Positions 35,611-59,532 of a DNA stretch of 64,000 nt are shown here, one piece after another (position 1 is the first letter of the stretch; every line of letters begins with the position of its first letter). Made by a program: the position numbers and the translations under genes. Below the pieces are notes generated by a model. The model was not told the DNA's origin and ran no database searches. It saw nothing but the letters and a program-made list of their open reading frames with translations. This DNA comes from Escherichia coli (lineage in GTDB: Bacteria; Pseudomonadota; Gammaproteobacteria; Enterobacterales; Enterobacteriaceae): the NCBI RefSeq assembly GCF_003334355.1, contig NZ_QOWP01000023.1; one strand, written 5' to 3'.

Positions 35611-36445
35611 GATTATCCCCTTCTCCTGCGTTGACGGGCCAGGCAGTCGTCTGGCTCTGTTTTTGCAGGGCTGCAATCTGCGCTGCAAAAACTGTCACAA
35701 TCCGTGGACGATGGGGCGCTGTAATCATTGCGGAGAGTGCGTGCCACAGTGTCCGCATCAGGCGTTGCAGATTGTTGACGGCAAAGTGGTGTGGAACGCT
35801 GCGGTCTGCGAGCAGTGTGATACCTGCCTGAAGAGGTGTCCGCAACATGCCACGCCGATGGCGCAATCCATGAGCGTGGACGAAGTGCTTAGCCATGTCC
35901 GCAAAGCGGTGCTGTTTATTGAAGGGATAACGGTAAGCGGCGGCGAAGCCACGACCCAACTGCCGTTTGTAGTGGCGCTGTTTACTGCTATCAAAAACGA
36001 TCCGCAACTGCGCCATCTCACCTGTCTGGTGGACAGTAACGGCATGTTGAGCGAAACCGGCTGGGAAAAATTACTCCCGGTGTGTGACGGCGCAATGCTC
36101 GATCTCAAAGCATGGGGTAGCGAATGTCATCAACAATTAACCGGACGCGATAATCAGCAGATTAAGCGCAGCATCTGTTTGCTGGCAGAGCGCGGCAAGC
36201 TGGCGGAACTGCGTTTGCTGGTAATCCCTGGCCAGGTGGATTATTTGCAACACATCGAAGAACTGGCGGCGTTTATCAAGGGACTTGGCGATGTTCCGGT
36301 ACGCCTGAACGCGTTTCATGCCCACGGCGTGTATGGCGAGGCGCAAAGCTGGGCGAGCGCCACGCCGGAAGACGTTGAGCCGTTGGCTGATGCATTAAAG
36401 GTGCGCGGGGGGGGCCGGTTGATATTTCCGGCGCTGTATTTGTGA
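35582..36445 (+). CDS. yjjW: Glycyl-radical enzyme activating protein (radical SAM) YjjW
   Basis: 287 aa; Cys clusters ([12 protein letters not shown]; [13 protein letters not shown]...[12 protein letters not shown]); overlaps yjjI 3' end. Confidence 0.88.
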
Positions 36446-36447
36446 CA

Positions 36448-36950
<503 letters not shown>

Positions 36951-36961
36951 CGAAGGGTAAA

Positions 36962-37744
36962 CTACCCACTAACGCTAAACAACGCATACGTATTATTAAG
37001 CAACACTTCGGCAATCTCATCTTCTGGTTCCGGGCGCAACTCGCAAAGCACGTCAAACACCCGCACAGCCTGTTCCGGTCGGTTAGGCTGCCCCTGAAAG
37101 CCGTTGAGCGGCATATCCGGCGCGTCGGTTTCCAGCAACAACGATGCCAGCGGTAATTTTGCGATGACATCGCGGGTTTTACTGGCGCGTGGATAGGTGA
37201 TAGTACCGCCTACGCCGATTTTGTAGCCCAGCTGTACAAACCGCTCGGCCTGTTGCAGGCTGCCGGAAAAACCGTGAACCACGCCAGTGCACGGTAAATC
37301 GTGACGTTTAAGATGCATCGCCAGTTTGTCGTGTGTACGCCGGGAATGAAGGATCACCGGCAGATCGTAGCGTTTCGCCAGTTTCAGCTGTTCGTCGAGT
37401 AACCACTGCTGCCTCTCAAATTGCGGATCGTCGCCGAAGAGATCCAGACCGATCTCCCCCACCGCCACCACCTTCGCCGGACGCCTTTCCAGCGCCTGCT
37501 GTAGCTGATCAAGAGACACATCGCTATGTTTTTCCAACATCCCCGGATGCAACCCCAATGCGGCATACAGCGGTTGATATTTTTCCGCTAACGCCTGCAC
37601 GCGGGCAAAATTTTCCGCCTCTGTCGCCGGAACAATGATCTTGCCTACGCCCGCTTGTGCCGCGCGTTGCAGGCTGGCCTCTTCATCGCCACTAAACGGC
37701 GGGAAATCAAAATGGCAGTGGGTATCGATAAAACGGCAAATCAA
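36962..37744 (-). CDS. yjjV: TatD-family metal-dependent hydrolase YjjV
   Basis: 260 aa, MICRFIDTHCHFDFPPF... (TatD HxH motif). Confidence 0.88.
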   Translation of the reverse strand: MICRFIDTHCHFDFPPFSGDEEASLQRAAQAGVGKIIVPATEAENFARVQALAEKYQPLYAALGLHPGMLEKHSDVSLDQLQQALERRPAKVVAVGEIGLDLFGDDPQFERQQWLLDEQLKLAKRYDLPVILHSRRTHDKLAMHLKRHDLPCTGVVHGFSGSLQQAERFVQLGYKIGVGGTITYPRASKTRDVIAKLPLASLLLETDAPDMPLNGFQGQPNRPEQAVRVFDVLCELRPEPEDEIAEVLLNNTYALFSVSG

Positions 37745-38850
37745 GCCAGATCCTCATTGTTAAATGTCGGGTCGTTCGCCTGCGGAGCATCGCTCACTTC
37801 GGCAACCAGCGTATCGTTGGCGACTGGCGCAGGCGGAATAACGATCGATTCCGGCGTCACCACTGGCACCAGATGGCGGGTAAGCGGCGCTTTTTCAGTT
37901 AATAGCTTGCCAACCGTGGCGAGGAAATAACGACCGCATAAACGCCCAAGTTTATAGTCTTCACGCAGCGCCGGAATCCGACTGCCAAGCGCGATACTAT
38001 GTAATGGTTTCGGTGGATAAATTTCGAATATCCGCAGCTTGCCCGGTGGTTTCTCAATAAATTGCTGAATGTCACGATAGCTGGTTTCATGATGCTGCAC
38101 CAGATTGACCAGCGGCTGCAGGCTACTGTCACCCAGCCAGCGTTCCATGCGTTTGAACCACTGCGGCGTGTAGTACATTTGTGACGGCACAGTGCGGATG
38201 ACGACCAACGTTTTAGCGCCCTGCCTTGCCGCCTCTTTAACCGGAATCGCATCACTGATCCCGCCATCCAGGTAGTTAATGCCTTCCAGCGACACTCCGC
38301 TACGATAAAAGCCAGGTATCGCACTGGAGGCGCGAATCACATCCAGCCAGTTTTGTTTGGTTGGTAAAAAGTAATTAGGCGCGTAGTCATCCTGACGACA
38401 GGCGCACATATAAAACGATTTGCCGCTGTCAAACAACCGCGCGGCGGTATCCATTTGCAACGGCATCTGGCTTGCGGTGGCCTCCACCAGCCAGTCGAGA
38501 TCGATAAGATTTCCTCCACGGACAAAGCGCAATGGATCGAAAAATTCGCGTTTTGTGGTATAGCACATGATGACTTTGCGCGCGTAACCGGGCTGATTGC
38601 AGATAAACGCCGAGAGGTTCTGCGCCCCGGCAGATGTGCCGAGATAAAGATCGAAAGGATTAAACTGCGCGCGCATAAACTCATCCAGCACGCCAGCCGT
38701 GAAAATTCCACGCTGTCCGCCGCCTTCGCACACCAGAGCTATTCGTCCAGGCTGGAACGGCCTTAGCGACAACGGCGCAATATTACCAAGCGTTACAGGT
38801 ATTCGCTGCCCCACCTCTGCCTTCCTGTTTTTGTTGTGAAAGAATGACAA
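37741..38850 (-). CDS. yjjU: Patatin-like phospholipase family protein YjjU
   Basis: Contains GGGQRG glycine-rich and GTSAG serine-hydrolase motifs; exact start uncertain (K-12 form may begin ~12 codons downstream). Confidence 0.82.
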   Translation of the reverse strand: MSFFHNKNRKAEVGQRIPVTLGNIAPLSLRPFQPGRIALVCEGGGQRGIFTAGVLDEFMRAQFNPFDLYLGTSAGAQNLSAFICNQPGYARKVIMCYTTKREFFDPLRFVRGGNLIDLDWLVEATASQMPLQMDTAARLFDSGKSFYMCACRQDDYAPNYFLPTKQNWLDVIRASSAIPGFYRSGVSLEGINYLDGGISDAIPVKEAARQGAKTLVVIRTVPSQMYYTPQWFKRMERWLGDSSLQPLVNLVQHHETSYRDIQQFIEKPPGKLRIFEIYPPKPLHSIALGSRIPALREDYKLGRLCGRYFLATVGKLLTEKAPLTRHLVPVVTPESIVIPPAPVANDTLVAEVSDAPQANDPTFNNEDLA

Positions 38851-38935
38851 AGTAACGCAATTTATTATTCGCTAAAACCGCAAAAGCCAGTCCGCTGGAC
38901 TGGCTTTGGATAAAATTTTCTTAATGGTCTGAAAT

Positions 38936-39097
38936 CTAGGGTCGTTTTCGGCCCATGAACAAACTCACCAGGAACAGAATAATCCCGACGACAAAGACAA
39001 TTTTAGCTGCGCCTGCAGCGGTACCGGCCAGACCACCAAACCCAAGTGCGGCGGCGATTAACGCGATAACCAGAAATATGATGCCCCAACGAAACAT
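38936..39097 (-). CDS. ytjA: Small membrane protein YtjA (DUF1328)
   Basis: Listed ORF contains [53 protein letters not shown]; start trimmed to the 53-aa form. Confidence 0.8.
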
Positions 39098-39223
39098 AAG
39101 CGTCTCCTTTACCATAGTTAATGTCACCGCTTGATATGAGCGTGAAAATCACTCAATGCGATATTTTTAGTGTGGTGCACATCGCGCCTCCCGACAAAGT
39201 TCGGGAGGACGAATTACGACGAA

Positions 39224-39829
39224 TTACTTAGTTTTCAGATCATTTTTAACGCTTTTCACACCATCTACCGCTTTGGCGATACTTTCAGCACGGTCGCTCT
39301 GTGCCTGGGAATCGACGGTACCGGAGAGCTGAACCACGCCGTCGGTGGTTTCAACTTTCACATGACGGGAAGGGACGATATCGTCCGCCAGCAGTTTGGC
39401 TTTGATTTCACTGGTGGTGGCGGTGTCACCCGCGTAGCCCTTCACAGAGCCTTCTTTAGCGTCGCGAACGTGCAGTTTGTCGCTGACAGAGGTCACCCCT
39501 TCAACGCCTTTCGCCACTTTCACTGCCTCTTCGGCCTGAGCCTGGCTTTCAACGAAACCGCTCAGGGTCACGACTTTTTGATCGGTTTTGACAGAGATAT
39601 CGGTGCTCTTGATGTTGTCATGATCCACCAGGGCCGCCTTCACTTTCGCGGTGATGGCGCTGTCATCCATGAAATTACCGACTTTATTCATAGAGCTATC
39701 GACTTTTTGCCCTGCGCTTTCATTGGTAGTCTGCGCGTTGTTTTCCGCGTAGGCAGAGCCTGTCGCGACGGCAGAGGTCAACATTACAGCCAGCAGAGTT
39801 TTCGAAATCTTCAGTCTTGTCATAGTCAT
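39224..39829 (-). CDS. osmY: Osmotically inducible periplasmic protein OsmY
   Basis: Listed ORF contains [28 protein letters not shown]... and two BON domains; start trimmed to 201-aa form. Confidence 0.92.
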
Positions 39830-40221
39830 CGATTTATTCCTGTAAGTTTGCTCGTAATTTGAGCCTGGCAACACGAGGTTGCATTGCTGAATAGGGAGAG
39901 ACTTCACCCTCTACAGAAGTCAATGGTCGCCATCACAAAAGCGATGGGTGATGAATAACGACCATTACAGCCTCTGAATCAGTTATTAATATCGGTAGAA
40001 TGACAATCTACGGCTTTAGATACTGATATCTACGCATTGAACGGTATTTAACGCCGTCAGAAATGTCATTACTTTGTTAAATATAGATCACAATTTTGAA
40101 ACCGCTCGGGATATCATCGAAAACATAAGCAAAAGTGAATGTTTTAAGAACATTCCGTAAGCGGCTAATAAGGAAGGGAAATTGACAGGGCGCAGCGGCT
40201 ACCGCGCCCTGGAGGCAAGAA

Positions 40222-41811
40222 TTAATGCTCGCGGGTCTGGTGGAACTGAACGTCCGGATAACGTTCCTGCGCCAGGCGCAGGTTGACCATGCTGGTAGCG
40301 ATGTAAGCGAGGTTATCGCCGCCATCAAGCGCCAGTTGGCTTTCGTTCTTACGCTTGAACTCTTCGAATTTCTTCGCGTCTGCACATTCTACCCAGCGGG
40401 CGGTGGCAACGTTGACTGATTCATATACTGCTTCAACGTTGTATTCGCTCTTCAGGCGCGATACCACCACATCAAACTGCAGCACACCAACCGCACCAAC
40501 GATCAGATCGTTGTTGGAGATTGGACGGAACACCTGCACCGCGCCCTCTTCGGAAAGCTGTACCAGCCCTTTGAGCAGCTGTTTTTGCTTCAGCGGATCT
40601 TTCAGGCGGATGCGACGGAACAGTTCTGGCGCGAAGTTCGGAATACCGGTGAACTTCATCATCTCACCCTGGGTAAAGGTGTCGCCAATCTGAATGGTGC
40701 CGTGGTTGTGCAGGCCGAGGATATCGCCCGGATATGCTTCTTCAACGTGCGAACGGTCACCTGCCATAAAGGTCAGCGCGTCGGAGATCACCACATCTTT
40801 CGCAGTGCGCACCTGGCGCAGCTTCATGCCTTTTTCATATTTACCGGATACCACGCGCATAAACGCCACGCGGTCGCGGTGTTTCGGGTCCATGTTGGCC
40901 TGAATTTTAAATACGAAGCCGGTAAATTTGTCTTCGCTCGCCTCTACGGTACGGGTATCAGTCTGACGCGGCATCGGCGCAGGAGCCCACTCCACCAGGC
41001 CATCCAGCATATGATCGACACCGAAGTTACCCAGCGCAGTACCGAAGAATACCGGAGTGATTTCGCCCGCAAGGAACAGCTCTTTGTCGAACTCATTAGA
41101 CGCGCCTTTCACCAGTTCCAGTTCGTCACGCAGCTGCTGTGCCAGATCTTCACCGACCGCTGCATCGAGATCCGGGTTATTCAGCCCTTTAACAATGCGG
41201 ACTTCCTGAATGGTGTGGCCTTTACCGCTCTGATAGAGATAGGTTTCGTCTTTATAAAGGTGGTAAACGCCTTTAAACAGCTTGCCGCAGCCGATCGGCC
41301 AGGTGATCGGTGCGCAGCCGATTTTCAGCTCGTTCTCAACTTCATCGAGCAGTTCCATCGGGTCGCGGATATCACGGTCAAGTTTGTTCATAAAGGTGAG
41401 GATCGGCGTGTCGCGCAGACGGGTAACTTCCATCAGCTTGCGGGTACGATCTTCAACACCTTTTGCGGCGTCGATAACCATCAGACAGCAGTCCACCGCC
41501 GTCAGGGTACGATAGGTATCTTCCGAGAAGTCTTCGTGCCCCGGGGTGTCGAGCAGATTAACCAGGCAATCGTGATACGGAAACTGCATCACAGACGTAG
41601 TAATGGAGATCCCACGCTGCTTTTCCATCTCCATCCAGTCCGACTTAGCGTGCTGGTTAGAGCCACGGCCTTTTACTGTACCGGCGGTCTGAATGGCCTG
41701 TCCGAACAGCAGCACCTTCTCGGTGATGGTAGTCTTACCGGCGTCCGGGTGAGAAATAATGGCAAAAGTGCGGCGCTTCGCCACCTCTTGCAAATAAGGA
41801 GACAACGTCAT
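40222..41811 (-). CDS. prfC: Peptide chain release factor 3
   Basis: Listed ORF contains [37 protein letters not shown]...; GTPase motifs; start trimmed to 529-aa form. Confidence 0.95.
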
Positions 41812-41901
41812 AATTCTTTCTTCTTGAGTAAGCGGCATCGCGCCGCGCTTGTTGAAAACGAAAAATTGCGGCTATTTTACCCATCAACGGGGGGGAGGCA
41901 A

Positions 41902-42579
41902 TCAGTGTTTACACAGGAGCTGCTCCAGTTCGTGCAACGAAGAAACGGTCCAGGTGGGCGCGATGCCTTCTGGTTGCTCGCGATTGTGCGCATTCAGCCA
42001 GCAGGTCGCAAGCCCGGCGTTGATGCCACCGAGAATATCGGACTCGGCAGTGTCGCCAACCATCAGCACGCGTGAACGGTCAGGATTGCCCGCCTGTTCC
42101 AGCGCATAATCGAAAATTTTCTTATTCGGTTTGGCAACGCCAACTTCTTCGGAAATCACCAGCAAATCGAAGTAATCACGCAGGCCCGTGCGTTCCAGAC
42201 GCACCTGTTGCAAGGCACTAAAGCCGTTGGTGATGATGCCGATTTTGGCGTTGCCACGAATGGCGTTAAGCAGAGAAACCGCGCCCGGCAGCGGCGTGCA
42301 GATTTCCGCCATCGCATTAATAAAGGCTTCGTTGAGTTTACCCGGCTCGACGTTCAGCCGTTCGGCCCAGCTCTCGAAACGCCCGTGCTGAAGCTGTAAT
42401 GAAGTGATCGCGCCGTTTTGATAATCCACCCACAGAGGCTTGTTAACGGCCTGATAGTCCTGAAAATCTTCAGCGGTAAAGGTGACGCTGTAATCAAGAA
42501 ACATCCGCTGCAGGCCGGTGAATGAGTCAAAGGTAAACAGCGTTTCATCGGCATCAAAGAAAATCCAGTCCCACTTCAT
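41902..42579 (-). CDS. yjjG: HAD-family pyrimidine 5'-nucleotidase YjjG
   Basis: 225 aa, [15 protein letters not shown]... (HAD DxD motif). Confidence 0.9.
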
Positions 42580-42593
42580 TATTCCACCTTGTC

Positions 42594-43040
42594 TTACATA
42601 CTGATTGGCAACGCCATGATGATGGCGTCTTCGCGACCGTCCGTGGTGGGGTAGTAATTGCGGCGAATCGTCGCCTCGTTAAAGCCTAAACTTTCGTACA
42701 GGGCAATGGCGGCAGCGTTTGAGGCACGGACTTCCAGCCAGAGCGTCGCCACGCCGCGTTTTTCCAGTTCATCGATCAGATGTTCCAGCAGCGCCCTTCC
42801 CAATCCCTGACGCTGATAGTCAGGATCGACCGCAATATTGAACAATGTAGCTTCATCCAGCACCACTTGCGTAATCGCAAACGCCGCCATTTTGCCGTTT
42901 TGCGTTAACTGAAAGTTGAGATAACGCTCGCCCTGGTTGCTGGCAAAGGTTTTTTCACTCCACGGAAAGGCGTGGGCGCGTTGTTCAATGTGGTAAGCCG
43001 CTGGTAAATCAGTCGTTTCGAGGGAAGAAATCGTGTTCAT
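42594..43040 (-). CDS. rimI: Ribosomal protein S18 alanine N-acetyltransferase RimI
   Basis: 148 aa GNAT acetyltransferase, [32 protein letters not shown]... Confidence 0.92.
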
Positions 43041-43422
43041 ATGTGCAAATTTGTTGCCATAACGCGGCGCGTGCCGTTGGGTTTGCCCGTAATTCGGTGA
43101 GCGCCGGTGATGCCACCTGAGCGCCTTCCAGTGATAGCGGTTCGTCAGTACCCAACCGCCAGCTGTTGCAGCGACTGCCTTGCGGCAGCATCGCGATTTT
43201 TTCTGGCGTCAGTTGCAGCACTTGATCGGGGCTGACGGTTAATGCGCGCAGAACATCGCTCACTAAAGGATCAGTCAGGGCGGGAAGATCGTTTGCCACC
43301 ATCACCAGACGGACGTGTGCCGGGATCGCAATGGCAATCTCCCCCTGCAACGCGCCAGGGCGACGCAGCGACCACTGGGTAATGCCCAGTTGCTGTAACT
43401 GCCAGTCTCGTCGGGATGTCAT
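43009..43422 (-). CDS. holD: DNA polymerase III psi subunit HolD
   Basis: 137 aa, MTSRRDWQLQQLGITQWSLRRPGALQGEIAIA...; 3' end overlaps rimI start by 32 bp. Confidence 0.92.
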   Translation of the reverse strand: MTSRRDWQLQQLGITQWSLRRPGALQGEIAIAIPAHVRLVMVANDLPALTDPLVSDVLRALTVSPDQVLQLTPEKIAMLPQGSRCNSWRLGTDEPLSLEGAQVASPALTELRANPTARAALWQQICTYEHDFFPRND

Positions 43423-43524
43423 AGCGAATCGCTCCTGTTGTCAGGGGCGCAAATATAGCAAATTCGTCGATACCGCGCCAACATATGGCTATAATCGCCG
43501 CCAGTATCAATTGAGGAGCATTCC

Positions 43525-44556
43525 ATGTCTGCATTTACCCCGGCAAGTGAAGTCTTGCTGCGTCACAGTGATGATTTCGAACAAAGCCGTATTCTGTTTG
43601 CCGGAGACTTACAGGATGACCTGCCCGCGCGTTTAGATACCGCGGCCAGCCGTGCTCATACCCAGCAATTCCACCACTGGCAGGTATTAAGCCGCCAGAT
43701 GGGGGATAACGCCCGTTTCAGTCTGGTCGCCACGGCGGATGACGTCGCAGATTGCGATACGCTGATTTACTACTGGCCGAAGAACAAACCGGAAGCCCAG
43801 TTCCAGTTGATGAATTTACTTTCTCTGCTGCCAGTGGGGACAGATATTTTTGTCGTTGGCGAGAACCGCAGCGGCGTGCGCAGCGCCGAGCAGATGCTGG
43901 CAGATTATGCGCCGTTGAATAAAGTCGACAGCGCTCGTCGCTGTGGCCTCTATTTTGGTCGTCTGGAAAAACAGCCGGTATTTGATGCCGATAAATTCTG
44001 GGGCGAATACAGCGTCGATGGCCTGACGGTCAAAACGCTGCCTGGCGTGTTTAGCCGCGACGGTCTGGATGTCGGTAGCCAGTTGCTGCTCTCGACGTTA
44101 ACCCCGCACACGAAAGGTAAAGTGCTGGATGTCGGCTGTGGCGCGGGTGTGCTTTCAGTTGCCTTTGCGCGCCATTCGCCGAAAATTCGTCTCACCTTGT
44201 GCGATGTCTCTGCGCCAGCGGTAGAAGCCAGCCGCGCAACACTTGCGGCCAACGGTGTTGAAGGTGAAGTCTTTGCCAGCAACGTCTTTTCCGAGGTGAA
44301 AGGTCGTTTTGATATGATCATCTCCAACCCGCCGTTCCACGATGGGATGCAAACCAGCCTGGATGCGGCGCAAACGCTGATTCGCGGCGCGGTGCGTCAT
44401 CTTAATAGCGGCGGCGAGCTGCGAATTGTAGCGAACGCCTTCCTGCCTTACCCGGACGTGCTGGATGAGACATTTGGCTTCCATGAAGTGATTGCGCAAA
44501 CCGGGCGTTTCAAGGTGTATCGCGCCATTATGACCCGCCAGGCGAAGAAAGGTTAA
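43525..44556 (+). CDS. rsmC: 16S rRNA (guanine1207-N2)-methyltransferase RsmC
   Basis: 343 aa, [32 protein letters not shown]...; SAM-binding motif [12 protein letters not shown]. Confidence 0.92.
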
Positions 44557-44574
44557 TTATCTCGCCGAATACCG

Positions 44575-44730
<156 letters not shown>

Positions 44731-44795
44731 AACCTGCACGTTAGTTTCCTGATGGACATTTTTCCAGCAATTACACCTCCGGCGATAATTAACTA

Positions 44796-44823
44796 TTGAC
44801 GAAAAGCTGAAAACCACTAGAAT
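44796..44823 (+). promoter_or_regulatory. tRNA-Leu (leuV) promoter
   Basis: -35 ttgacg, 16-bp spacer, -10 tagaat, GC-rich discriminator gcgcctcc typical of stringently controlled tRNA promoters. Confidence 0.7.
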
Positions 44824-44864
44824 GCGCCTCCGTGGTAGCAATTCTTTTTAAGAATTGATGGTAT

Positions 44865-44951
44865 GCGAAGGTGGCGGAATTGGTAGACGCGCTAGCTTCA
44901 GGTGTTAGTGTCCTTACGGACGTGGGGGTTCAAGTCCCCCCCCTCGCACCA
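44865..44951 (+). tRNA. leuV: tRNA-Leu (anticodon CAG), single copy
   Basis: 87-nt sequence gcgaaggtggcggaattggtagacgcgctagcttcaggtgttagtgtccttacggacgtgggggttcaagtcccccccctcgcacca with long variable arm and encoded CCA. Confidence 0.93.
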
Positions 44952-44989
44952 ATTATCTTTACTTCCTTTCTTGTTTCTTCCTTGATTTT

Positions 44990-45226
44990 TCATCCCTGAT
45001 TCAAATTCATTATCATCAGCATGATGGCAGCAATAAGCGCCAGGCACGATGGTAGCAAAACGTAATGCCGTAACTGTTTGTGATACAGCATCACCGGCGT
45101 CAATACTAATCCCATCAGAATGACAATCCGCCACTGATCCGGCGATAAATCCGCATACATCAGCCCTGCAATCAGCAATCCCGGCAGCAACACTCCCCAG
45201 CCACTGCCCAGCGTACGTTGCAACAT
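44990..45226 (-). CDS. yjjZ: Small membrane protein YjjZ
   Basis: Listed ORF contains MLQRTLGSGWGVLLPGLLIAGLMYADLSPDQWRIVILMGLVLTPVMLYHKQLRHYVLLPSCLALIAAIMLMIMNLNQG; start trimmed to the 78-aa form. Confidence 0.8.
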   Translation of the reverse strand: MLQRTLGSGWGVLLPGLLIAGLMYADLSPDQWRIVILMGLVLTPVMLYHKQLRHYVLLPSCLALIAAIMLMIMNLNQG

Positions 45227-45242
45227 GGTTTCATCTCTTTCA

Positions 45243-45352
45243 TTGATAATGATAACCAATATCATATGATAATTTTTATCATTTGCAAGCCAGAGAAATC
45301 CCTTGCTATCGGGTAAACCTATCGCTAGGATTAGCAATCATTATCATTTAGA
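45243..45352. promoter_or_regulatory. fhuF promoter region with Fur boxes
   Basis: gataatgataaccaatatcatatgataatttttatc and caatcattatcattta resemble the Fur consensus gataatgataatcattatc. Confidence 0.7.
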
Positions 45353-45366
45353 TTACTATCCCGATT

Positions 45367-46155
45367 ATGGCCTATCGTTCCGCACCGCTCTATGAAGATA
45401 TCATCTGGCGAACGCATCTCCAGCCGCAGGATGCTGGGCTTGCACAAGCCGTACGTGCGACGATCGCCAAACATCGTGAACATTTGCTCGAGTTTATCCG
45501 CCTGGATGAACCCGCTCCGCTTAACGCCATGACGCTGGCGCAATGGTCATCACCGAATGCGCTAAGTTCTCTACTCGCGGTCTATTCCGATCATATCTAT
45601 CGCAACCAACCAACGATGATCCGCGAGAACAAACCGCTGATCTCACTATGGGCACAATGGTATATCGGCCTGATGGTGCCACCATTAATGCTGGCGCTAC
45701 TGACGCAGGAAAAGGCATTAGATGTGTCGCCGGAACATTTCCATGCTGAGTTTCACGAAACCGGACGCGTCGCCTGTTTCTGGGTCGATGTGTGTGAAGA
45801 TAAAAACGCAACACCACATTCGCCGCAGCAGCGAATGGAAACGTTAATCAGCCAGGCGCTGGTTCCGGTTGTGCAGGCACTAGAAGCGACCGGAGAGATC
45901 AACGGCAAACTTATCTGGAGTAATACCGGTTATTTGATCAACTGGTATCTCACTGAGATGAAGCAGCTGCTCGGCGAGGCGACGGTTGAATCGCTGCGCC
46001 ATGCCCTCTTTTTTGAGAAAACGCTCACGAACGGTGAAGATAATCCACTCTGGCGTACCGTGGTACTGCGCGATGGCCTGCTGGTGCGCCGCACTTGCTG
46101 CCAGCGTTATCGCTTACCGGATGTGCAGCAATGTGGCGATTGTACGCTGAAATGA
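45367..46155 (+). CDS. fhuF: Ferric-siderophore reductase FhuF (2Fe-2S)
   Basis: 262 aa; C-terminal Cys cluster CCQRYRLPDVQQCGDCTLK. Confidence 0.92.
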   Translation: MAYRSAPLYEDIIWRTHLQPQDAGLAQAVRATIAKHREHLLEFIRLDEPAPLNAMTLAQWSSPNALSSLLAVYSDHIYRNQPTMIRENKPLISLWAQWYIGLMVPPLMLALLTQEKALDVSPEHFHAEFHETGRVACFWVDVCEDKNATPHSPQQRMETLISQALVPVVQALEATGEINGKLIWSNTGYLINWYLTEMKQLLGEATVESLRHALFFEKTLTNGEDNPLWRTVVLRDGLLVRRTCCQRYRLPDVQQCGDCTLK

Positions 46156-46192
46156 AAGCACTGCCGGGGAAGTAAACCCGGCATCATGCGGA

Positions 46193-46870
46193 TTAATAGG
46201 GATGCAACACATTACTTGCTTCGCAATGCCGCATACATAACAGAATATCTGCGGCCTCCAACAACCCTGCATCAGAACTGACGCCCAGTTTCGACATCAC
46301 ATTAAATTTATGTGCACGGATCGTTTTGATATTGCGTTTAAGCTGCTCGGCAATTTGTGTCATTGAGTAGCCACGCGACATAAAGCGCAATATTTCTCTC
46401 TCCGTGGGGCTTAGCGTCCGGCTTTGGTTAATGTACCACTGATTGTTCAGTCGGTCGGTCGCCTGACGTACACCATTTAATGACAAAAAGAGTTCCTGAT
46501 GAAAAATCTCCAGCGTTGACGCTTTACTTAATACACCGTCCAGCGGTGATGGCGACAATGAACCAATCAGCCGAGCTTCAATATCATCATCCGCAATAAC
46601 TAAACGCCGGGTACGCGGAAACTTAATCGCCAGTTCAGTCAGGCAAGATAATCCCTCTCTGCGCTCACTTCTCATGGCAGAAAAAGAAAAAATGACCGCC
46701 GCAAACGAGATCCGCGACATGGCATCCTGAAATGACTCCTGACTGGTATAGGTATGGAGCTTATAAGGGTTACCCGCAAACTTTCTGAATAAACTCTCAA
46801 TACCGATACTACTCATGACGCATTTTTCTATGAGTGCGACATTTCTCTTCTTAATTCGGCTGTGTTCCAT
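46193..46870 (-). CDS. bglJ: LuxR-family transcriptional regulator BglJ
   Basis: 225 aa; C-terminal LuxR HTH ([44 protein letters not shown]). Confidence 0.9.
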
Positions 46871-47553
46871 TCTGCGGCATCTCCATAAACAGAAGGCAAG
46901 TTAAGTTCTCTTGCACCCTGCGCGCTATTTATCCATGCATACATTTCAGCGTTGCTGTGAATTGCCAGTCGACGCATCGCACTGTTTTTTTGGGCGCTGA
47001 TAGTTTTATTACTTTTCTTAAGCAACGAAGCTATCTGGTTGATGCCCCATCCTTTACCTAATAGCCGCAGTACCTTGCGCTCTGAAAGAGTGAGAATGAC
47101 GGAGCGATAGCTAAAATCATGAGTTTCAGTCATTGCCGGAGAGGTCAGCATGGCGCTGATACGCTCTGCGTGCGTATTGCCGGAACGTACGGTCTTGACC
47201 AGATTCTCAATGGGTTCAACATCAGACAATAACGTCGCCGTAGGGCACATGAGCAATTCTACTGCCTGGGAATACCAGGAGCGTGACACCATGAAAACCC
47301 AGTGAATTTCCCGATATTGTGAGATTAAAGAATAATAATGTTCACAAACAGAACGTGGATCTTCACTTTCACCGGCTAAATCAGCAATGACTAATCCGGA
47401 ACGACGTAATTGTAATAAGGTAAGGTCCTCCGCAGAGGCGCTGGATATTATTTCATATTCAGGGAAGTGAGTCCTCATGACCTCTTTTAACCCTGCTTGC
47501 ATAACAGGTATTTTACTGATAACAATTCCATTTTTGCAGCATCCTGGCAACAT
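46828..47553 (-). CDS. yjjQ: LuxR-family transcriptional regulator YjjQ
   Basis: 241 aa; C-terminal LuxR HTH ([41 protein letters not shown]); overlaps bglJ start. Confidence 0.9.
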
Positions 47554-48171
47554 ATTTCCTCCACATCCACTGTCTAAAAATCATGATGGTTTATTCAGGA
47601 TATTCATTCCTTAAATGTTTCCAGCAAATTAATAGATTAAGCGAATAAATTATCCTTAGCATTCACTTTCATATCAGCATACTCCTGCTGCACAACAACT
47701 CCACTGCATGTGTCAGAAGGTTAGCATCAAATGATAACCTGGTGAAATAGCCTGGAGACATTTAAAATATCTACATTAAGTTGTTAGAAATACTTAATGA
47801 AAAACAGAAATATCATTCATTTAATTTATAATTCAATGATACCTCTTCCCGCAAAATGCAAAATCACACAACCAATATTTATTCAATAAAATCTGATTGT
47901 TTTAACTTGTTGGCATTAAAAAACGCGCCCAGTTATCTATTATCCTGATTCGTAAAGGCCAAACAATAAATTCATTATGGTGATAATATTCATGTGATAA
48001 TTTGTTTGCGGCGAGAGATAATTCGCTTTTTATCACCGAGCTTCTCCCGATAACCAGGATTAATCAGCGCAATTTTGATCTTAACCTACCGCAAAACAAC
48101 CGTGCTTCATGATACAAATGAATTCTCATTATCTGAACAATACGCAGCACGTCTATGACAAAGGGCGAGTT

Positions 48172-48942
48172 ATGCAAACTGAGCAACAGCGAGCCGTAAC
48201 ACGGCTTTGTATCCAGTGTGGATTATTTCTTTTGCAACATGGTGCGGAAAGCGCGTTGGTTGATGAGCTTTCCTCACGACTGGGTCGGGCGCTGGGAATG
48301 GACAGCGTCGAAAGTTCTATCTCTTCGAACGCCATAGTGCTGACAACCATTAAAGATGGGCAATGCCTGACATCGACACGTAAAAATCACGATCGCGGCA
48401 TTAATATGCATGTGGTGACTGAAGTCCAGCACATTGTGATTCTGGCGGAGCACCATCTGCTGGATTACAAAGGCGTAGAGAAACGATTTAGCCAAATTCA
48501 GCCATTACGTTACCCAAGATGGCTGGTAGCCTTAATGGTTGGCCTTTCTTGCGCCTGTTTCTGTAAACTCAATAACGGTGGCTGGGATGGTGCCGTCATC
48601 ACCTTCTTTGCCAGTACGGCCGCGATGTATATCCGCCAGCTACTGGCACAACGTCATCTTCATCCACAGATCAACTTTTGCCTCACCGCTTTCGCCGCCA
48701 CCACTATTTCCGGTTTGCTTTTGCAACTTCCCACCTTCAGCAATACACCCACCATTGCAATGGCCGCCAGCGTTCTGCTGCTGGTGCCGGGCTTTCCGTT
48801 GATTAATGCCGTCGCCGATATGTTTAAAGGCCACATCAATACCGGACTGGCACGCTGGGCGATCGCCAGTCTGCTGACACTGGCTACCTGCGTCGGCGTG
48901 GTGATGGCACTGACGATTTGGGGGCTACGCGGATGGGTGTGA
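48172..48942 (+). CDS. yjjP: ThrE-family inner membrane protein YjjP (succinate exporter subunit)
   Basis: Listed ORF contains [30 protein letters not shown]...; start trimmed to 256-aa form. Confidence 0.85.
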
Positions 48943-49406
48943 TCGAGTTTCTGTTTGCATTGGCGCAGGATATGATCCTCGCCGCCATTCCAGCGGTCGG
49001 CTTTGCGATGGTGTTCAACGTTCCCGTTCGGGCATTACGCTGGTGTGCGCTGCTTGGCGCGATTGGTCATGGTTCCCGAATGATCTTAATGACCAGCGGG
49101 CTGAATATTGAGTGGTCAACCTTTATGGCTTCTATGCTGGTCGGCACCATTGGTATTCAATGGTCGCGCTGGTATCTGGCGCATCCGAAAGTGTTTACCG
49201 TGGCGGCTGTTATCCCTATGTTTCCTGGCATATCAGCTTATACTGCAATGATTTCGGCGGTAAAAATCAGTCAGCTAGGCTACAGCGAACCGTTGATGAT
49301 TACCCTGTTAACCAACTTTCTTACAGCTTCATCAATTGTTGGTGCGTTATCCATCGGTCTTTCCATTCCTGGATTATGGTTGTACCGCAAGCGCCCTCGC
49401 GTATAA
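48933..49406 (+). CDS. yjjB: Inner membrane protein YjjB (partner of YjjP)
   Basis: Listed ORF contains [30 protein letters not shown]...; overlaps yjjP stop. Confidence 0.85.
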
Positions 49407-49513
49407 AATTGCCTCACTTAAAGCACGCGGATGAGAGACAGCCTCCTCTCCTCCGTGTGTTACTATAAAAGTTATCTCCCTTCTCGTTCATCGTTCCATA
49501 TTTGAGAAACAGT

Positions 49514-50053
49514 ATGTCTTCCAGAGTTTTGACCCCGGACGTCGTTGGTATTGACGCCCTGGTACAGGATCACCAAACCGTTCTGGCAAAAGCTGAAGGC
49601 GGTGTGGTTGCCGTATTTGCTAACAATGCCCCGGCGTTTTATGCCGTCACGCCTGCACGCCTGGCTGAACTGCTGGCGCTGGAAGAAAAGCTGGCGCGTC
49701 CGGGAAGCGATGTCGCTCTGGACGATCAACTCTATCAGGAACCGCAAGCCGCTCCCGTTGCTGTACCCATGGGGAAATTCGCCATGTATCCGGACTGGCA
49801 ACCCGATGCCGACTTTATCCGCCTGGCGGCGCTATGGGGCGTGGCGCTAAGAGAGCCGGTGACCACCGAAGAACTGGCCTCATTCATTGCCTACTGGCAG
49901 GCGGAAGGTAAAGTCTTTCACCATGTGCAGTGGCAACAAAAACTGGCGCGCAGCCTGCAAATCGGTCGTGCCAGCAACGGCGGACTGCCGAAACGAGATG
50001 TGAATACGGTCAGCGAACCTGACAGCCAAATTCCACCAGGATTCAGAGGGTAA
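49514..50053 (+). CDS. dnaT: Primosomal protein DnaT
   Basis: Listed ORF contains [30 protein letters not shown]...; start trimmed to 179-aa form. Confidence 0.92.
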
Positions 50054-50055
50054 CG

Positions 50056-50793
50056 ATGAAAAACGTTGGCGACCTGATGCAACGCCTGCAAAAAATGATG
50101 CCTGCCCATATCAAACCTGCATTCAAAACGGGTGAAGAGCTACTGGCCTGGCAGAAAGAACAAGGGGCGATCCGCTCCGCCGCTCTCGAACGTGAAAATC
50201 GGGCGATGAAAATGCAGCGCACCTTTAACCGCTCCGGTATTCGTCCACTGCATCAGAACTGCTCCTTTGAGAACTATCGCGTTGAGTGTGAAGGGCAGAT
50301 GAATGCGTTAAGCAAAGCGCGCCAGTATGTCGAAGAGTTTGACGGCAACATCGCCAGCTTCATCTTTTCTGGTAAGCCAGGAACCGGCAAAAACCATCTG
50401 GCGGCGGCAATCTGCAACGAGCTGCTGCTACGCGGTAAATCCGTATTGATCATCACCGTGGCCGATATTATGTCGGCGATGAAAGATACCTTCAGGAATA
50501 GCGGTACCAGCGAAGAACAACTGCTTAACGATCTGAGCAACGTTGATCTGCTGGTGATCGATGAGATCGGCGTGCAGACCGAATCGAAATACGAAAAAGT
50601 GATCATCAACCAGATCGTCGATCGCCGCTCTTCTTCCAAACGCCCAACCGGGATGCTGACCAACAGTAATATGGAAGAGATGACCAAGTTGCTGGGCGAA
50701 CGCGTGATGGACCGTATGCGCCTGGGTAACAGTTTGTGGGTGATCTTCAACTGGGATAGCTACCGTAGCCGGGTAACAGGTAAAGAGTATTAA
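50056..50793 (+). CDS. dnaC: Replicative helicase loader DnaC
   Basis: 245 aa, MKNVGDLMQRLQKMMPAHIKPAFKTGEELLAWQKEQ...; Walker A GKPGTGKNHLA. Confidence 0.95.
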   Translation: MKNVGDLMQRLQKMMPAHIKPAFKTGEELLAWQKEQGAIRSAALERENRAMKMQRTFNRSGIRPLHQNCSFENYRVECEGQMNALSKARQYVEEFDGNIASFIFSGKPGTGKNHLAAAICNELLLRGKSVLIITVADIMSAMKDTFRNSGTSEEQLLNDLSNVDLLVIDEIGVQTESKYEKVIINQIVDRRSSSKRPTGMLTNSNMEEMTKLLGERVMDRMRLGNSLWVIFNWDSYRSRVTGKEY

Positions 50794-50838
50794 TCCCCGT
50801 TTCTGGCGGTATACTGCGACACAATTCCACCTTGAGTA

Positions 50839-51336
50839 ATGATGATGAAAACTGTTAAACATCTTCTGTGCTGTGCCATTGCCGCCAGCGCATTAATTTC
50901 CACTGGGGTGCATGCTGCGTCCTGGAAAGATGCGCTCTCCAGCGCCGCCAGCGAACTTGGCAACCAAAACAGCACGACACAGGAAGGCGGTTGGTCGCTC
51001 GCGTCATTAACTAACTTGCTTAGCAGCGGGAACCAGGCCTTAAGCGCAGATAACATGAACAACGCCGCAGGCATTCTGCAATACTGCGCGAAGCAAAAGC
51101 TGGCGTCGGTAACCGATGCCGAAAACATCAAGAACCAGGTGCTGGAAAAACTGGGCCTGAACAGTGAAGAGCAAAAAGAAGACACCAACTATCTGGATGG
51201 CATTCAGGGTTTGCTGAAAACCAAAGATGGTCAGCAACTCAATCTGGATAATATCGGAACGACTCCGCTGGCAGAAAAGGTGAAAACCAAAGCCTGCGAT
51301 CTGGTGTTAAAGCAGGGGCTGAACTTCATTTCCTGA
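50839..51336 (+). CDS. yjjA: Secreted protein of unknown function YjjA
   Basis: ~165 aa with signal peptide; exact start among the MMM codons uncertain. Confidence 0.8.
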   Translation: MMMKTVKHLLCCAIAASALISTGVHAASWKDALSSAASELGNQNSTTQEGGWSLASLTNLLSSGNQALSADNMNNAAGILQYCAKQKLASVTDAENIKNQVLEKLGLNSEEQKEDTNYLDGIQGLLKTKDGQQLNLDNIGTTPLAEKVKTKACDLVLKQGLNFIS

Positions 51337-51589
51337 ACCGCGAAACGCCGCGTTTTAGCTGTTACCCGGCTGACGCGGCTCTCTCCTGCCCTTTTCCCTG
51401 CTCCTGGACGGTTTTCCCCCTGTTACACGGGAAGCGACCGTAATCAAAAAAGTCTGTTTATAAACTAATTCCTAACAACATCGCATTTTTTTGACACTAG
51501 AATTGCAGCAATATGGCGACGCCATTACATTGTGCTTCTCAAAAAGCTTAAACGTTGGCTAAACGGCCCGGTTTAGTGAGGATCGCCCG

Positions 51590-53881
51590 TTGTCAGAACT
51601 ACTCTCTTTCGCCCTTTTTCTCGCCTCTGTGCTGATTTACGCATGGAAAGCGGGACGTAACACCTGGTGGTTTGCAGCCACGTTAACGGTGCTGGGGCTA
51701 TTTGTCGTTTTAAATATCACCCTGTTTGCCAGCGACTATTTTACTGGCGATGGTATTAACGACGCGGTTCTCTATACCTTAACCAACAGCCTGACCGGTG
51801 CTGGTGTCAGCAAATACATTCTTCCGGGTATCGGCATTGTGCTGGGGCTGACGGCGGTGTTCGGTGCGCTGGGCTGGATCCTGCGCCGTCGTCGCCATCA
51901 TCCGCACCATTTTGGTTACAGCCTGCTGGCACTCTTACTGGCGCTGGGTTCAGTGGATGCCAGCCCGGCATTTCGTCAGATAACGGAACTGGTGAAATCC
52001 CAGTCACGCGATGGCGACCCGGACTTTGCGGCTTATTATAAAGAGCCGTCGAAAACTATCCCTGACCCGAAACTCAACCTGGTTTATATCTACGGCGAAA
52101 GTCTCGAGCGGACCTATTTTGATAACGAAGCTTTCCCGGATCTCACGCCTGAACTGGGCGCGTTGAAAAATGAAGGCCTGGATTTCAGCCACACGCAGCA
52201 GCTGCCAGGAACGGATTACACGATTGCGGGCATGGTGGCTTCTCAGTGCGGCATACCGCTGTTTGCCCCCTTTGAAGGCAACGCCTCCGCCTCTGTCTCC
52301 AGCTTCTTCCCGCAGAACATCTGTCTGGGCGATATCCTGAAAAACTCGGGTTATCAGAACTATTTCGTGCAGGGCGCGAATCTGCGTTTTGCCGGTAAAG
52401 ATGTGTTCCTGAAGTCGCATGGCTTCGACCACTTATACGGCTCAGAAGAGCTGAAAAGCGTGGTGGCCGACCCGCACTATCGCAACGACTGGGGATTCTA
52501 CGACGATACCGTTCTCGATGAAGCGTGGAAAAAGTTTGAAGAGCTTTCCCGCTCAGGTCAGCGATTCTCACTGTTTACCCTGACAGTCGATACCCATCAC
52601 CCGGATGGTTTTATCTCGCGTACCTGTAACCGCAAAAAATATGATTTTGACGGTAAGCCGAACCAGTCATTCAGCGCGGTAAGTTGCAGCCAGGAGAATA
52701 TCGCGGCGTTTATCAACAAAATCAAAGCGTCACCGTGGTTTAAAGATACCGTCATCGTCGTCTCTTCTGACCATTTAGCGATGAACAACACGGCGTGGAA
52801 ATACCTTAATAAGCAGGATCGCAATAACCTGTTTTTTGTCATTCGTGGCGACAAGCCGCAGCAAGAGACGCTGGCAGTGAAGCGTAACACGATGGATAAC
52901 GGCGCGACGGTGCTGGACATTCTCGGTGGCGATAACTATCTCGGACTTGGTCGTAGCAGTTTATCCGGGCAGTCAATGTCGGAAATCTTCCTCAATATCA
53001 AAGAGAAAACATTGGCGTGGAAGCCGGATATCATCCGCCTGTGGAAATTCCCTAAAGAGATGAAAGAGTTCACCATCGACCAGCAGAAAAACATGATTGC
53101 CTTCTCGGGTAGCCATTTCCGTTTGCCACTGCTGTTGCGGGTTTCAGACAAACGCGTGGAACCGCTGCCGGAAAGCGAATACTCAGCACCGCTGCGTTTC
53201 CAGCTGGCCGATTTCGCTCCACGCGACAATTTCGTCTGGGTTGACCGTTGCTATAAGATGGCACAACTCTGGGCTCCGGAACTGGCACTCTCCACCGACT
53301 GGTGTGTCTCGCAAGGGCAGCTTGGCGGTCAGCAAATTGTTCAGCATGTTGACAAAACAACATGGCAGGGCAAAACGGCATTTAAAGATACGGTCATCGA
53401 CATGGCGCGTTATAAAGGCAATGTCGATACGCTGAAAATTGTTGATAACGATATTCGCTACAAAGCCGACAGTTTCATCTTCAACGTCGCCGGTGCGCCA
53501 GAAGAGGTGAAACAGTTTAGTGGGATTTCCCGTCCAGAGTCGTGGGGCCGCTGGTCCAACGCGCAGCTGGGCGATGAAGTAAAAATCGAGTACAAGCATC
53601 CGCTGCCGAAGAAATTTGACCTGGTGATTACCGCCAAAGCATACGGCAATAACGCCAGCCGTCCTATTCCGGTACGCGTAGGCAATGAAGAACAAACTCT
53701 TGTGCTGGGCAATGAAGTGACCACCACCACACTGCATTTCGATAACCCAACCGATGCCGACACACTGGTAATTGTGCCGCCGGAACCTGTCTCAACCAAC
53801 GAAGGGAATATCCTCGGACACTCGCCGCGTAAGCTCGGGATCGGCATGGTGGAAATTAAAGTTGTGGAACGTGAAGGGTAA
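51590..53881 (+). CDS. opgB: Phosphoglycerol transferase I (OpgB/MdoB)
   Basis: 763 aa; N-terminal TM helices plus sulfatase-like domain. Confidence 0.92.
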
Positions 53882-53892
53882 TTTCTGACTGA

Positions 53893-53945
53893 TGTGTAGG
53901 TCGCATAAGGTGCGACCTACACATCTTCTCCGGCCTACAAAACAT
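53893..53945. repeat. Palindromic REP-like element / terminator downstream of opgB
   Basis: gtgtaggtcgcataaggtgcgacctacac hairpin followed by ccggcctacaaaa REP half. Confidence 0.7.
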
Positions 53946-54020
53946 CATTGAGAAACAGAAAAAAAACAGCGCCCAACACTTCCCCGGACGCTGCATGGCA
54001 ACTTTAATAATCTCGCCTTA

Positions 54021-55043
54021 TCAGAAAGTAATTACACCCTTAATCAACTCACGATTGTTAATCACATCGCGCTCGTAGGTTTCTGCCAGCGTGGCGAACG
54101 GATAGCGATGGGTTAACATCATGTCGGCAGTGATTTTTCCTTCCGCCATCAGTCGACCGACTTTAGCAAAATCTTCCGGCGTGGCGTTGCGGCTGCCCAT
54201 CATCGTCGTTTCTTTTTTATGGAATTCCGGATCGGAGAACTGCAACTCACCTTTAAACAGGCCGACAAATACCACCGTGCCGCCGTGACGAATCAAATTC
54301 ACGGTGTTATTCATCGCATGTTGATTACCTGTCGCGTCGATCACTTTCTGCGCCAGCGAACCACCAAACTGCGCCCGTAGCTGCGCGTCAAAATCTTCGG
54401 CTGACGGGTCCAGTAAAGGTAATTCCAGACGCGTTGCCACATGTTCACGGCGCGCCGGACTGGTATCCGCCACCACCACCTGTGCGCCATCGGCTTTAGC
54501 GATTGCCGCCGCGCCCAGACCGATTGGCCCCGCCCCGACCACCAGCACCTGCTCGCCGGGAGCAATGGCTGCGCGACGCACCGCATGAGCGCTAATAGCG
54601 AAAGGTTCAATCAATGCTGCCGCCTGCGGGTCAATACCGTCTGCGGGCAAAATGTTCGCCACCGGCACGCTCAAATACTCACTAAAACCGCCATCCTGAT
54701 GCACGCCAATGACTGAAATTTTTTCACAGCAATTGGTACGCCCGCTTTTACACGCCGGGCATTGCTGACAGGCAACATAAGGGATCACAGCAACTTGCTG
54801 ACCATTTTTAAGATCAGCAATATTTTTACCCAGCCCAACAATCTCCCCACATATTTCATGGCCTAAAACACGTGGATAACTAAAAAATGGTTGATTTCCA
54901 CCCCAGGCATGAATATCGGTACCACAAATCCCGACAGACTTAATTTTTATTAATGCTTCATTGTCACCCGGAATAGGTATCTCGCGTTGTTTCCAGACTA
55001 ATTCTTTCGGCTGCTGGCAAATTAAAACATTCATCGTAGACAT
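54021..55043 (-). CDS. lgoD: L-galactonate 5-dehydrogenase LgoD (YjjN), Zn-dependent MDR family
   Basis: Listed ORF contains MSTMNVLICQQPKELVWKQREIPIPGDNEALIKIKSVGICGTDIHAWGGNQPF...; start trimmed to 340-aa form. Confidence 0.9.
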   Translation of the reverse strand: MSTMNVLICQQPKELVWKQREIPIPGDNEALIKIKSVGICGTDIHAWGGNQPFFSYPRVLGHEICGEIVGLGKNIADLKNGQQVAVIPYVACQQCPACKSGRTNCCEKISVIGVHQDGGFSEYLSVPVANILPADGIDPQAAALIEPFAISAHAVRRAAIAPGEQVLVVGAGPIGLGAAAIAKADGAQVVVADTSPARREHVATRLELPLLDPSAEDFDAQLRAQFGGSLAQKVIDATGNQHAMNNTVNLIRHGGTVVFVGLFKGELQFSDPEFHKKETTMMGSRNATPEDFAKVGRLMAEGKITADMMLTHRYPFATLAETYERDVINNRELIKGVITF

Positions 55044-55181
55044 GATTCGGCTCTCCATTTTTTGTTGCCTTAGATATCAATAAAAATGAAAAATGGCAGC
55101 GGAACGGAAAATCTGTTTTGTGAAAACACACGCATAAAAATGTTTTAAATCGGGTTTTAATGGACTCACAAGGAGGAAAAT

Positions 55182-56096: not shown

Positions 56097-56309
56097 GTAC
56101 GGATTAAAAACAGCAAACTATTAGCGGTGCACGGTTTTATCAAAAGATAAATACCGGGAAATTCCCGCTTACCTATGCTCACAATCAGTCGACTAAAAAT
56201 GTTTTTGTGAGCGGTAGTAAAGTCCTAAAACTTTAACCTGCCGTTAATGTCAACCTTGCGTAATGCACAATTACGTAAACAATTAAAATTATAAATACAG
56301 GAGTCCGGC

Positions 56310-57671: not shown

Positions 57672-57678
57672 ACTCCCT

Positions 57679-57713
57679 ATGCCCGATAACATTTTGCTTA
57701 TCGGGCATTTTTA
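57679..57713. terminator. Bidirectional terminator between convergent lgoT and tsr
   Basis: Hairpin atgcccgataa-N9-ttatcgggcat followed by T-run. Confidence 0.7.
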
Positions 57714-57719
57714 TGGCGA

Positions 57720-59384: not shown

Positions 59385-59532
59385 GGTTTCTCTTTCCTGT
59401 GGACCGATGCAAGATTTTCGGCCAGGAAAGGAAAAACTTTATGAATATCCCGCGGAGATTACGCCGAGTAATTTTATTCACACTCTGAATTTAAAAAGCC
59501 ATTATTTACATAAATTACTCACAATATAAATA

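What the first reader, a model, noticed from the sequence alone, without database searches (positions are those of the whole stretch)
44796..44989. Single tRNA-Leu(CAG) gene where K-12 has the leuQ-leuP-leuV triplet
Only one 87-nt tRNA-Leu lies between its promoter and yjjZ; as I recall, K-12 has three near-identical tandem copies here. This is either a genuine copy-number difference affecting Leu-CUG decoding capacity or an assembly collapse of tandem repeats.
Basis: partly seen in the sequence, partly recalled or inferred. Interest (0 to 1): 0.3.

Follow-up and report, generated by a model that had tools for sequence, protein, structure and literature searches.

The report
One-copy allele of leuQPV tRNA array
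This E. coli sequence has one leucine tRNA gene where the K-12 reference has three in a row; about 8% of finished E. coli genomes, including the O157:H7 clade, share this ordinary copy-number variant, so it is not a new biological feature.

Summary
The window has exactly one tRNA-Leu(CAG) gene (44865-44951, +) between rsmC and yjjZ. It is identical to K-12 leuQ/leuV and sits behind an intact leuQPV promoter (TTGACG-16-TAGAAT, 44796-44823). K-12 has leuQ-leuP-leuV at this position.

The window differs by a clean 236-bp loss: spacer 1, leuP, spacer 2 and one tRNA. That is the product expected from an unequal exchange or slippage between the identical 87-bp leuQ and leuV repeats.

Among 5,426 complete E. 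coli genomes, about 4,963 carry both inter-tRNA spacers, about 20 carry one, and about 443 (8%) carry neither. About 317 genomes carry the single-copy O157:H7-type haplotype, so that clade probably accounts for most of the 443. Two-copy and five-copy alleles also exist, the five-copy one being the reciprocal product. One-copy alleles sit on at least four different flanking haplotypes, so contraction is recurrent.

The window's own flanks are identical to three-copy strains (KCTC 2571, PSS-12). Its contraction is therefore private and recent, or else an assembler skipped the repeat loop. The sequence cannot separate these two; I estimate about 70% real and 30% collapse.

The feature is ordinary and of a known kind, and interest is low.

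The parts
43525..44556 (+). rsmC (16S rRNA m2G1207 methyltransferase), the upstream neighbour that fixes the synteny
   Evidence: ORF of 343 aa. The same position is annotated as rsmC in K-12, AVS0750, KCTC 2571 and PSS-12.
44558..44760 (.). REP/BIME-type palindromic repeat region between rsmC and the leu promoter. It has one extra unit of about 41 nt compared with K-12.
   Evidence: Rfam naRNA4 (RF02564) matches 44635-44717 on the - strand at 70.3 bits. The alignment shows a 41-nt insertion relative to K-12 that AVS0750 shares.
44796..44823 (+). leuQPV (leuV) operon promoter: -35 TTGACG, 16-nt spacer, -10 TAGAAT, followed by a GC-rich discriminator (GCGCCTCC)
   Evidence: Best promoter-like site in the region, 10 of 12 matches. 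From 44784 to the tRNA, which includes the promoter and leader, every base is identical in the window, K-12 and AVS0750.
44824..44864 (+). 5' leader of the pre-tRNA, identical to the K-12 leuQ leader and removed by RNase P
   Evidence: Invariant in the alignment. RNase P-dependent maturation of this operon is reported in PMC2190699. The transcription start itself is inferred, not mapped here.
44865..44951 (+). The single tRNA-Leu(CAG) gene (tRNA-Leu1), 87 nt with encoded CCA, carrying the leuQ/leuV allele. The deletion junction lies somewhere inside it and cannot be located, because the recombining repeats are identical.
   Evidence: ARAGORN and Rfam. It is 100% identical to K-12 leuQ and leuV and 98.85% to leuP.
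44952..44989 (+). 3' trailer, identical to the sequence downstream of K-12 leuV. It has no intrinsic terminator.
   Evidence: Alignment. No terminator-like site was found on the + strand. Rho-dependent termination of this operon is proposed in PMC2190699.
44990..45226 (-). yjjZ (DUF1435), the convergent downstream neighbour
   Evidence: Annotated as yjjZ at the equivalent position in AVS0750, KCTC 2571, PSS-12 and K-12. It lies within the - strand ORF 44990-45337.

Best explanation
The window carries the one-copy allele of a copy-number-variable tandem array of tRNA-Leu(CAG) genes, the leuQ-leuP-leuV operon of K-12. The ancestral and majority state in E. coli is three 87-bp genes separated by unique 28- and 34-nt spacers. 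leuQ and leuV are identical, so a misaligned exchange between them removes exactly 236 bp (spacer 1, leuP, spacer 2 and one tRNA length). The exchange could be unequal sister-chromatid recombination or replication slippage. It leaves the promoter, the leuQ leader, one intact tRNA and the leuV trailer. The remaining gene is expressed as a monocistronic pre-tRNA from the unchanged promoter and is matured by RNase P and 3' exonucleases. The expected consequence is lower gene dosage for the major CUG-decoding tRNA: this locus contributes one copy instead of three, in addition to leuT elsewhere in the genome. Shown here: the anatomy, the exact 236-bp difference, the population frequencies, and the recurrence on different haplotypes. 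Inferred: the exchange mechanism, the expression and processing of the single gene, and that the event happened in the cell rather than in the assembler.
For: The anatomy is promoter, one tRNA and the leuV trailer, with a 236-bp gap relative to K-12 and no scar. The tRNA carries the leuQ/leuV allele, not the leuP allele. Of 5,426 complete E. coli genomes, spacer 1 is present in 4,965, spacer 2 in 4,981 and both in 4,963, so about 443 have neither. One-copy genomes were checked by their annotation or sequence: AVS0750, with more than 20 sister AVS strains listed with a single tRNA-Leu, O157:H7 Z1814, and spread rows of O157:H7-type genomes, where 317 genomes are at least 99% identical to that haplotype. 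Other copy numbers exist. Z1323CEC0018 has two copies. L015 has five copies in a Q-P-V-P-V pattern with 28/34/28/34-nt spacers, which is the reciprocal product of the same 236-bp-register exchange. Four one-copy alleles sit on four different flanking haplotypes, and two of them have flanks identical to a three-copy allele over 1,510 bp, which indicates recurrent contraction. Of the 12 draft contigs retrieved without regard to tRNA number, 11 carry the triplet, so short-read assemblers usually resolve this locus. A strain deleted for all three genes is viable (PMC9981150).
Against: The window's haplotype has only 3 SNPs against KCTC 2571 over 35000-49000. It shows no difference from KCTC 2571 or PSS-12 in 1,510 bp of immediate flanks, and both strains carry three copies. 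No complete genome combines the window's flanks with one copy; the best one-copy match is 99.6% identical. The contraction is therefore private to this sequence, which is also what an assembly artefact would look like. The window's source genome is not in the complete-genome set, so the sequencing technology is unknown.
Confidence: 0.7

Rival explanations
1. Assembly collapse. The strain really has three copies, and the assembler skipped the loop (spacer 1, leuP, spacer 2) that starts and ends in the identical 87-bp leuQ/leuV node. The resulting sequence is indistinguishable from a true deletion.
For: The nearest haplotypes, KCTC 2571 and PSS-12, have three copies and identical flanks. No complete genome shares the window's flanks together with one copy. 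The window's genome is not among the 5,426 complete RefSeq assemblies, so it may be a draft. The identical leuQ/leuV repeat of 87 bp is longer than common k-mer sizes (inference).
Against: Of 12 unselected draft contigs, 11 carry the full triplet, so collapse is not usual at this locus. Reads of 100-150 nt can span the 87-bp repeat (inference). Genuine one-copy alleles are common and recurrent in finished genomes. The same window keeps a 4.8-copy 101-bp tandem array at 36457-36944 uncollapsed, although those copies are only 94% alike.
Confidence: 0.28
2. The one-copy allele was imported by homologous recombination from a lineage that already had it, such as the AVS type or the O157:H7 type, rather than arising by a new deletion.
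For: E. coli haplotypes in this region are mosaic. The window switches relatedness near 49.4-50.5 kb. One-copy donor lineages are common.
Against: The AVS one-copy haplotype differs from the window at six sites, 45013-45107, which begin 62 bp downstream of the tRNA. The nearest difference upstream is at 43736. The O157 haplotype differs at 30 of 1,510 flank positions, and L023 at 9. An imported tract would have to end within 61 bp of the tRNA and leave no donor SNP.
Confidence: 0.02

Closest known systems
leuQ-leuP-leuV operon of E. coli K-12 MG1655 (b4370, b4369, b4368)
   Same: Same locus between rsmC and yjjZ/fhuF. The promoter, leader and trailer are identical, and the tRNA sequence is identical to leuQ and leuV.
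   Different: One gene instead of three. The 28-nt and 34-nt spacers and the leuP allele are absent, and the upstream repeat region has one extra REP unit of about 41 nt.
One-copy allele annotated in complete E. coli genomes (O157:H7 clade such as Z1814 and Xuzhou21, and Swiss AVS wastewater strains such as AVS0750)
   Same: Same architecture: promoter, one tRNA-Leu(CAG), yjjZ. The tRNA sequence is identical.
   Different: The flanking haplotypes differ: 6 differences for AVS and 30 for O157 in 1,510 bp. The window's contraction is therefore an independent event, or an artefact.
Expanded five-copy allele (L015, GCA_013943745.2 CP180008.1) and two-copy allele (Z1323CEC0018)
   Same: Same array and same repeat units. 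The five-copy allele is the reciprocal product of the 236-bp-register exchange, and the two-copy allele comes from a 115-bp-register exchange, having lost spacer 1 and kept spacer 2.
   Different: The copy number changes in the opposite direction or by a smaller step.
Engineered delta-leuVPQ strain of MG1655 (Raval et al. 2023, PMC9981150)
   Same: Reduced tRNA-Leu(CAG) gene dosage at the same locus. The strain is viable, and the paper reports that tRNA redundancy is beneficial in rich medium and costly under nutrient limitation.
   Different: The engineered strain lacks all three genes, whereas the window retains one.

Membership tests
tRNA-Leu(CAG), tRNA-Leu1 (leuQ/leuV allele) | tRNA cloverleaf with anticodon CAG | tested here: met
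   ARAGORN calls tRNA-Leu with anticodon cag at position 35, 87 nt. Rfam RF00005 scores 48.5 bits against a gathering score of 29.
tRNA-Leu(CAG), tRNA-Leu1 (leuQ/leuV allele) | Sequence identity to the K-12 genes, including the encoded 3' CCA | tested here: met
   100% identity over 87 nt to K-12 leuQ and leuV, and one mismatch to leuP.
leuQPV operon locus | Synteny rsmC - leu tRNA(s) - yjjZ - fhuF | tested here: met
   Same gene order as K-12, KCTC 2571, PSS-12 and AVS0750.
leuQPV operon locus | Operon promoter and leader conserved | tested here: met
   TTGACG-16-TAGAAT at 44796-44823. The promoter and leader are invariant against K-12 in the alignment.
leuQPV operon locus | Three tandem tRNA genes separated by 28-nt and 34-nt spacers | tested here: not met
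   There is one gene, and both spacers are absent.
Direct-repeat-mediated deletion (unequal exchange or slippage) | Missing segment equals a whole number of repeat periods, with end points inside identical repeats and no scar | tested here: met
   The 236 bp missing equal 115 + 121. The flanks are otherwise base-for-base identical to three-copy KCTC 2571 and PSS-12.
Direct-repeat-mediated deletion (unequal exchange or slippage) | Reciprocal (expanded) and intermediate products exist in the population | tested here: met
   A five-copy allele with a Q-P-V-P-V pattern and a two-copy allele were found. Up to 3 places per genome match each spacer.
Assembly collapse of a tandem repeat | Excess read depth over the retained copy, or reads containing the missing spacers | not testable with these tools
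   No reads are available. The sequence alone is identical under both hypotheses.

The most novel reading that the evidence does not exclude
The leuQPV array could act as a dosage-tuning locus. Frequent contraction and expansion between 1 and 5 or more copies through the identical leuQ/leuV repeats would be sorted by selection on growth regime. One-copy alleles would then be favoured in nutrient-poor or slow-growth niches, and would have become fixed in O157:H7 for that reason, rather than being neutral accidents.
Probability: 0.1. Interest if true: 0.35.

Novelty: already known. Interest (0 to 1): 0.1.

Why it matters
The finding matters little beyond bookkeeping. tRNA-Leu(CAG) reads CUG, the commonest E. 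coli codon, and in K-12 three quarters of this tRNA comes from the leuQPV operon (PMC2190699). A one-copy strain therefore probably has about half the K-12 gene dosage, which may slightly lower its maximum growth rate in rich medium (PMC9981150). The practical points are these. The locus is a recurrent copy-number polymorphism, found in 1, 2, 3 and 5 copies. K-12 is not the universal state. A one-copy call in an assembly of unknown technology should be checked against the reads before it is interpreted.

Tried and rejected
1. I tried to find the window's source genome or lineage. The best matches in the 5,426-genome set are KCTC 2571 (99.7% over 35000-55000) and PSS-12 (about 2 mismatches over 1-25000). 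Neither is the source.

2. Exact-protein look-ups with the window's opgB and lgoD alleles hit tens of thousands of assemblies, so they are too common to identify the lineage. The loci they returned did serve as an unselected sample of copy number.

3. Import of a ready-made one-copy allele by recombination is rejected on the flanking SNPs.

4. A mobile element or island inserted at the tRNA is rejected, because both flanks run on exactly as in K-12.

5. A pseudogene or degraded tRNA is rejected, because the gene is identical to leuQ/leuV.

6. Literature searches for an explicit description of leuQPV copy-number polymorphism among E. coli strains found none in the held library. I recall that Withers et al. 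2006 (RNA 12:933) compared tRNA gene sets of K-12, CFT073 and O157:H7, but I could not check it.

7. I could not list all 443 one-copy genomes by lineage, because the search tool lists at most 60 rows. The O157:H7 share (about 317) is estimated from the identity band.

Full report
**What is there**

ARAGORN finds a single tRNA gene in the 64-kb window: tRNA-Leu with anticodon CAG at 44865-44951 on the + strand. Rfam's tRNA model matches the same place. The gene lies between rsmC (43525-44556, +) and yjjZ (44990-45226, -), followed by fhuF. This is the gene order of the K-12 leuQPV locus read on the opposite strand.

The best sigma-70-like site in the region is TTGACG-16-TAGAAT at 44796-44823, followed by a GC-rich discriminator. 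This is where the finding starts. No intrinsic terminator follows the tRNA on the + strand. That agrees with the published view that this operon ends by Rho-dependent termination and is matured by RNase P, PNPase and RNase II (PMC2190699).

**Comparison with K-12**

MG1655 has leuQ, leuP and leuV here, three 87-nt genes separated by 28 and 34 nt. Aligned, the window equals the K-12 promoter and leader, one tRNA, and the leuV trailer, with 236 bp missing and no other scar. Those 236 bp are spacer 1 (28 nt), leuP (87 nt), spacer 2 (34 nt) and one more tRNA length (87 nt).

The retained gene is 100% identical to leuQ and leuV. It lacks the single T that marks leuP. This is the product expected from a misaligned exchange between the identical leuQ and leuV repeats. 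The size difference is 236 bp rather than 250-300 bp: the rsmC-yjjZ gap is 433 bp here and 669 bp in a three-copy relative.

**How common the one-copy state is**

I searched 5,426 complete E. coli genomes with junction probes that can only match if a spacer is present.

| Probe | Genomes matched |
|---|---|
| Spacer 1 | 4,965 |
| Spacer 2 | 4,981 |
| Both spacers in one place | 4,963 |

By inclusion-exclusion, about 443 genomes (8.2%) have neither spacer and about 20 have only one. Two independent counts are of the same order. 501 genomes cover at least 80% of the window's locus in one place, and 509 do so for an O157:H7 one-copy query.

One-copy genomes checked directly include AVS0750, with more than 20 sister AVS strains listed in the search with a single tRNA-Leu, and O157:H7 Z1814. 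About 317 genomes are at least 99% identical to the O157:H7 haplotype, and every sampled row among them shows one tRNA-Leu. The allele therefore appears fixed in that clade.

Other copy numbers also exist. Z1323CEC0018 has two copies and keeps spacer 2. A five-copy allele shows the pattern Q-P-V-P-V (L015), which is the reciprocal product of the same 236-bp-register exchange.

**Recurrence**

Over 1,510 bp of flanks, excluding the repeat region and the array, four one-copy alleles lie on four different haplotypes (6 to 32 pairwise differences). These are the window, AVS0750, O157:H7 Z1814 and the draft contig L023. Two of them, the window and L023, have flanks identical to a three-copy allele. 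Contraction has therefore happened several times.

**The window's own case**

From 35000 to 49000 the window differs from KCTC 2571 by 3 SNPs plus the 236-bp indel. It differs from PSS-12 by 2 SNPs between 36.8 and 50.5 kb, and by about 2 mismatches over 1-25000. Both strains have three copies.

The AVS one-copy haplotype differs at six sites starting 62 bp downstream of the tRNA, so import of that allele by recombination is unlikely. No complete genome has the window's flanks together with one copy, and the window's genome is not in the collection. The contraction is thus private to this sequence.

It is either a recent genuine deletion or an assembler skipping the loop that begins and ends in the identical 87-bp repeat. 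The two give the same sequence, so only reads, PCR or long reads can decide.

I favour a genuine deletion, at about 0.7, for three reasons:
- Real one-copy alleles are common and recurrent.
- Of 12 unselected draft contigs, 11 carry the intact triplet.
- Ordinary reads can span 87 bp.

**Function**

Published work shows that the operon's transcript is processed by RNase P independently of RNase E, and that three quarters of tRNA-Leu1 in K-12 derives from it (PMC2190699). A strain lacking all three genes is viable. In that study, tRNA redundancy helped in rich medium and was costly under nutrient limitation (PMC9981150).

A one-copy strain should therefore express a monocistronic pre-tRNA from the unchanged promoter. 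It should have roughly half the K-12 gene dosage for the CUG decoder, assuming leuT is present elsewhere in the genome. This is inference; nothing in the window tests it.

**Verdict**

This is a correctly observed, ordinary and already annotated copy-number polymorphism of a tandem tRNA array. It is not a new feature. Interest is low. The only open point is whether this particular instance is biological or an assembly artefact.

Noticed in passing
window 36457-36944: Tandem array of a 101-bp REP/BIME-like unit, 4.8 copies at 94% matches, in the yjjW-yjjV intergenic region. KCTC 2571 has the same gap length, while the otherwise near-identical PSS-12 has a gap 303 bp shorter, which is three units. 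This is a second copy-number-variable repeat in the window.
   Followed up: partly
window 44558-44760: REP-type palindromic repeats between rsmC and the leu promoter. Rfam naRNA4 (RF02564) matches 44635-44717 on the - strand at 70.3 bits. The window, AVS0750 and KCTC 2571 carry one unit of about 41 nt more than K-12.
   Followed up: partly
window about 49460-59445 and beyond: The haplotype is mosaic. The window is near-identical to KCTC 2571 up to about 49.4 kb and to PSS-12 up to about 50.5 kb, then diverges from both. Collinearity with PSS-12 ends at 59445, and PSS-12 carries the hpa operon beyond tsr. The window instead continues like L012, which has cstA there.
   Followed up: partly
L005 3001-3086 (O157:H7 strain Z1814) and FORC_044: The single tRNA-Leu in these two records has a run of 7 C instead of 8 in the T arm, giving an 86-nt gene. 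The other sampled O157:H7 rows are one base longer over the same query, consistent with 8 C. This run is a documented indel hotspot (PMC8510543). It could be a real frameshift-like tRNA mutation or a homopolymer sequencing error.
   Followed up: no
L015 1288-1846 (GCA_013943745.2, CP180008.1): A five-copy expansion of the same tRNA-Leu array, in which the leuP-type copies carry a second mismatch (97.7% identity). The same locus also has an IS1 insertion near yjjQ/bglJ.
   Followed up: no
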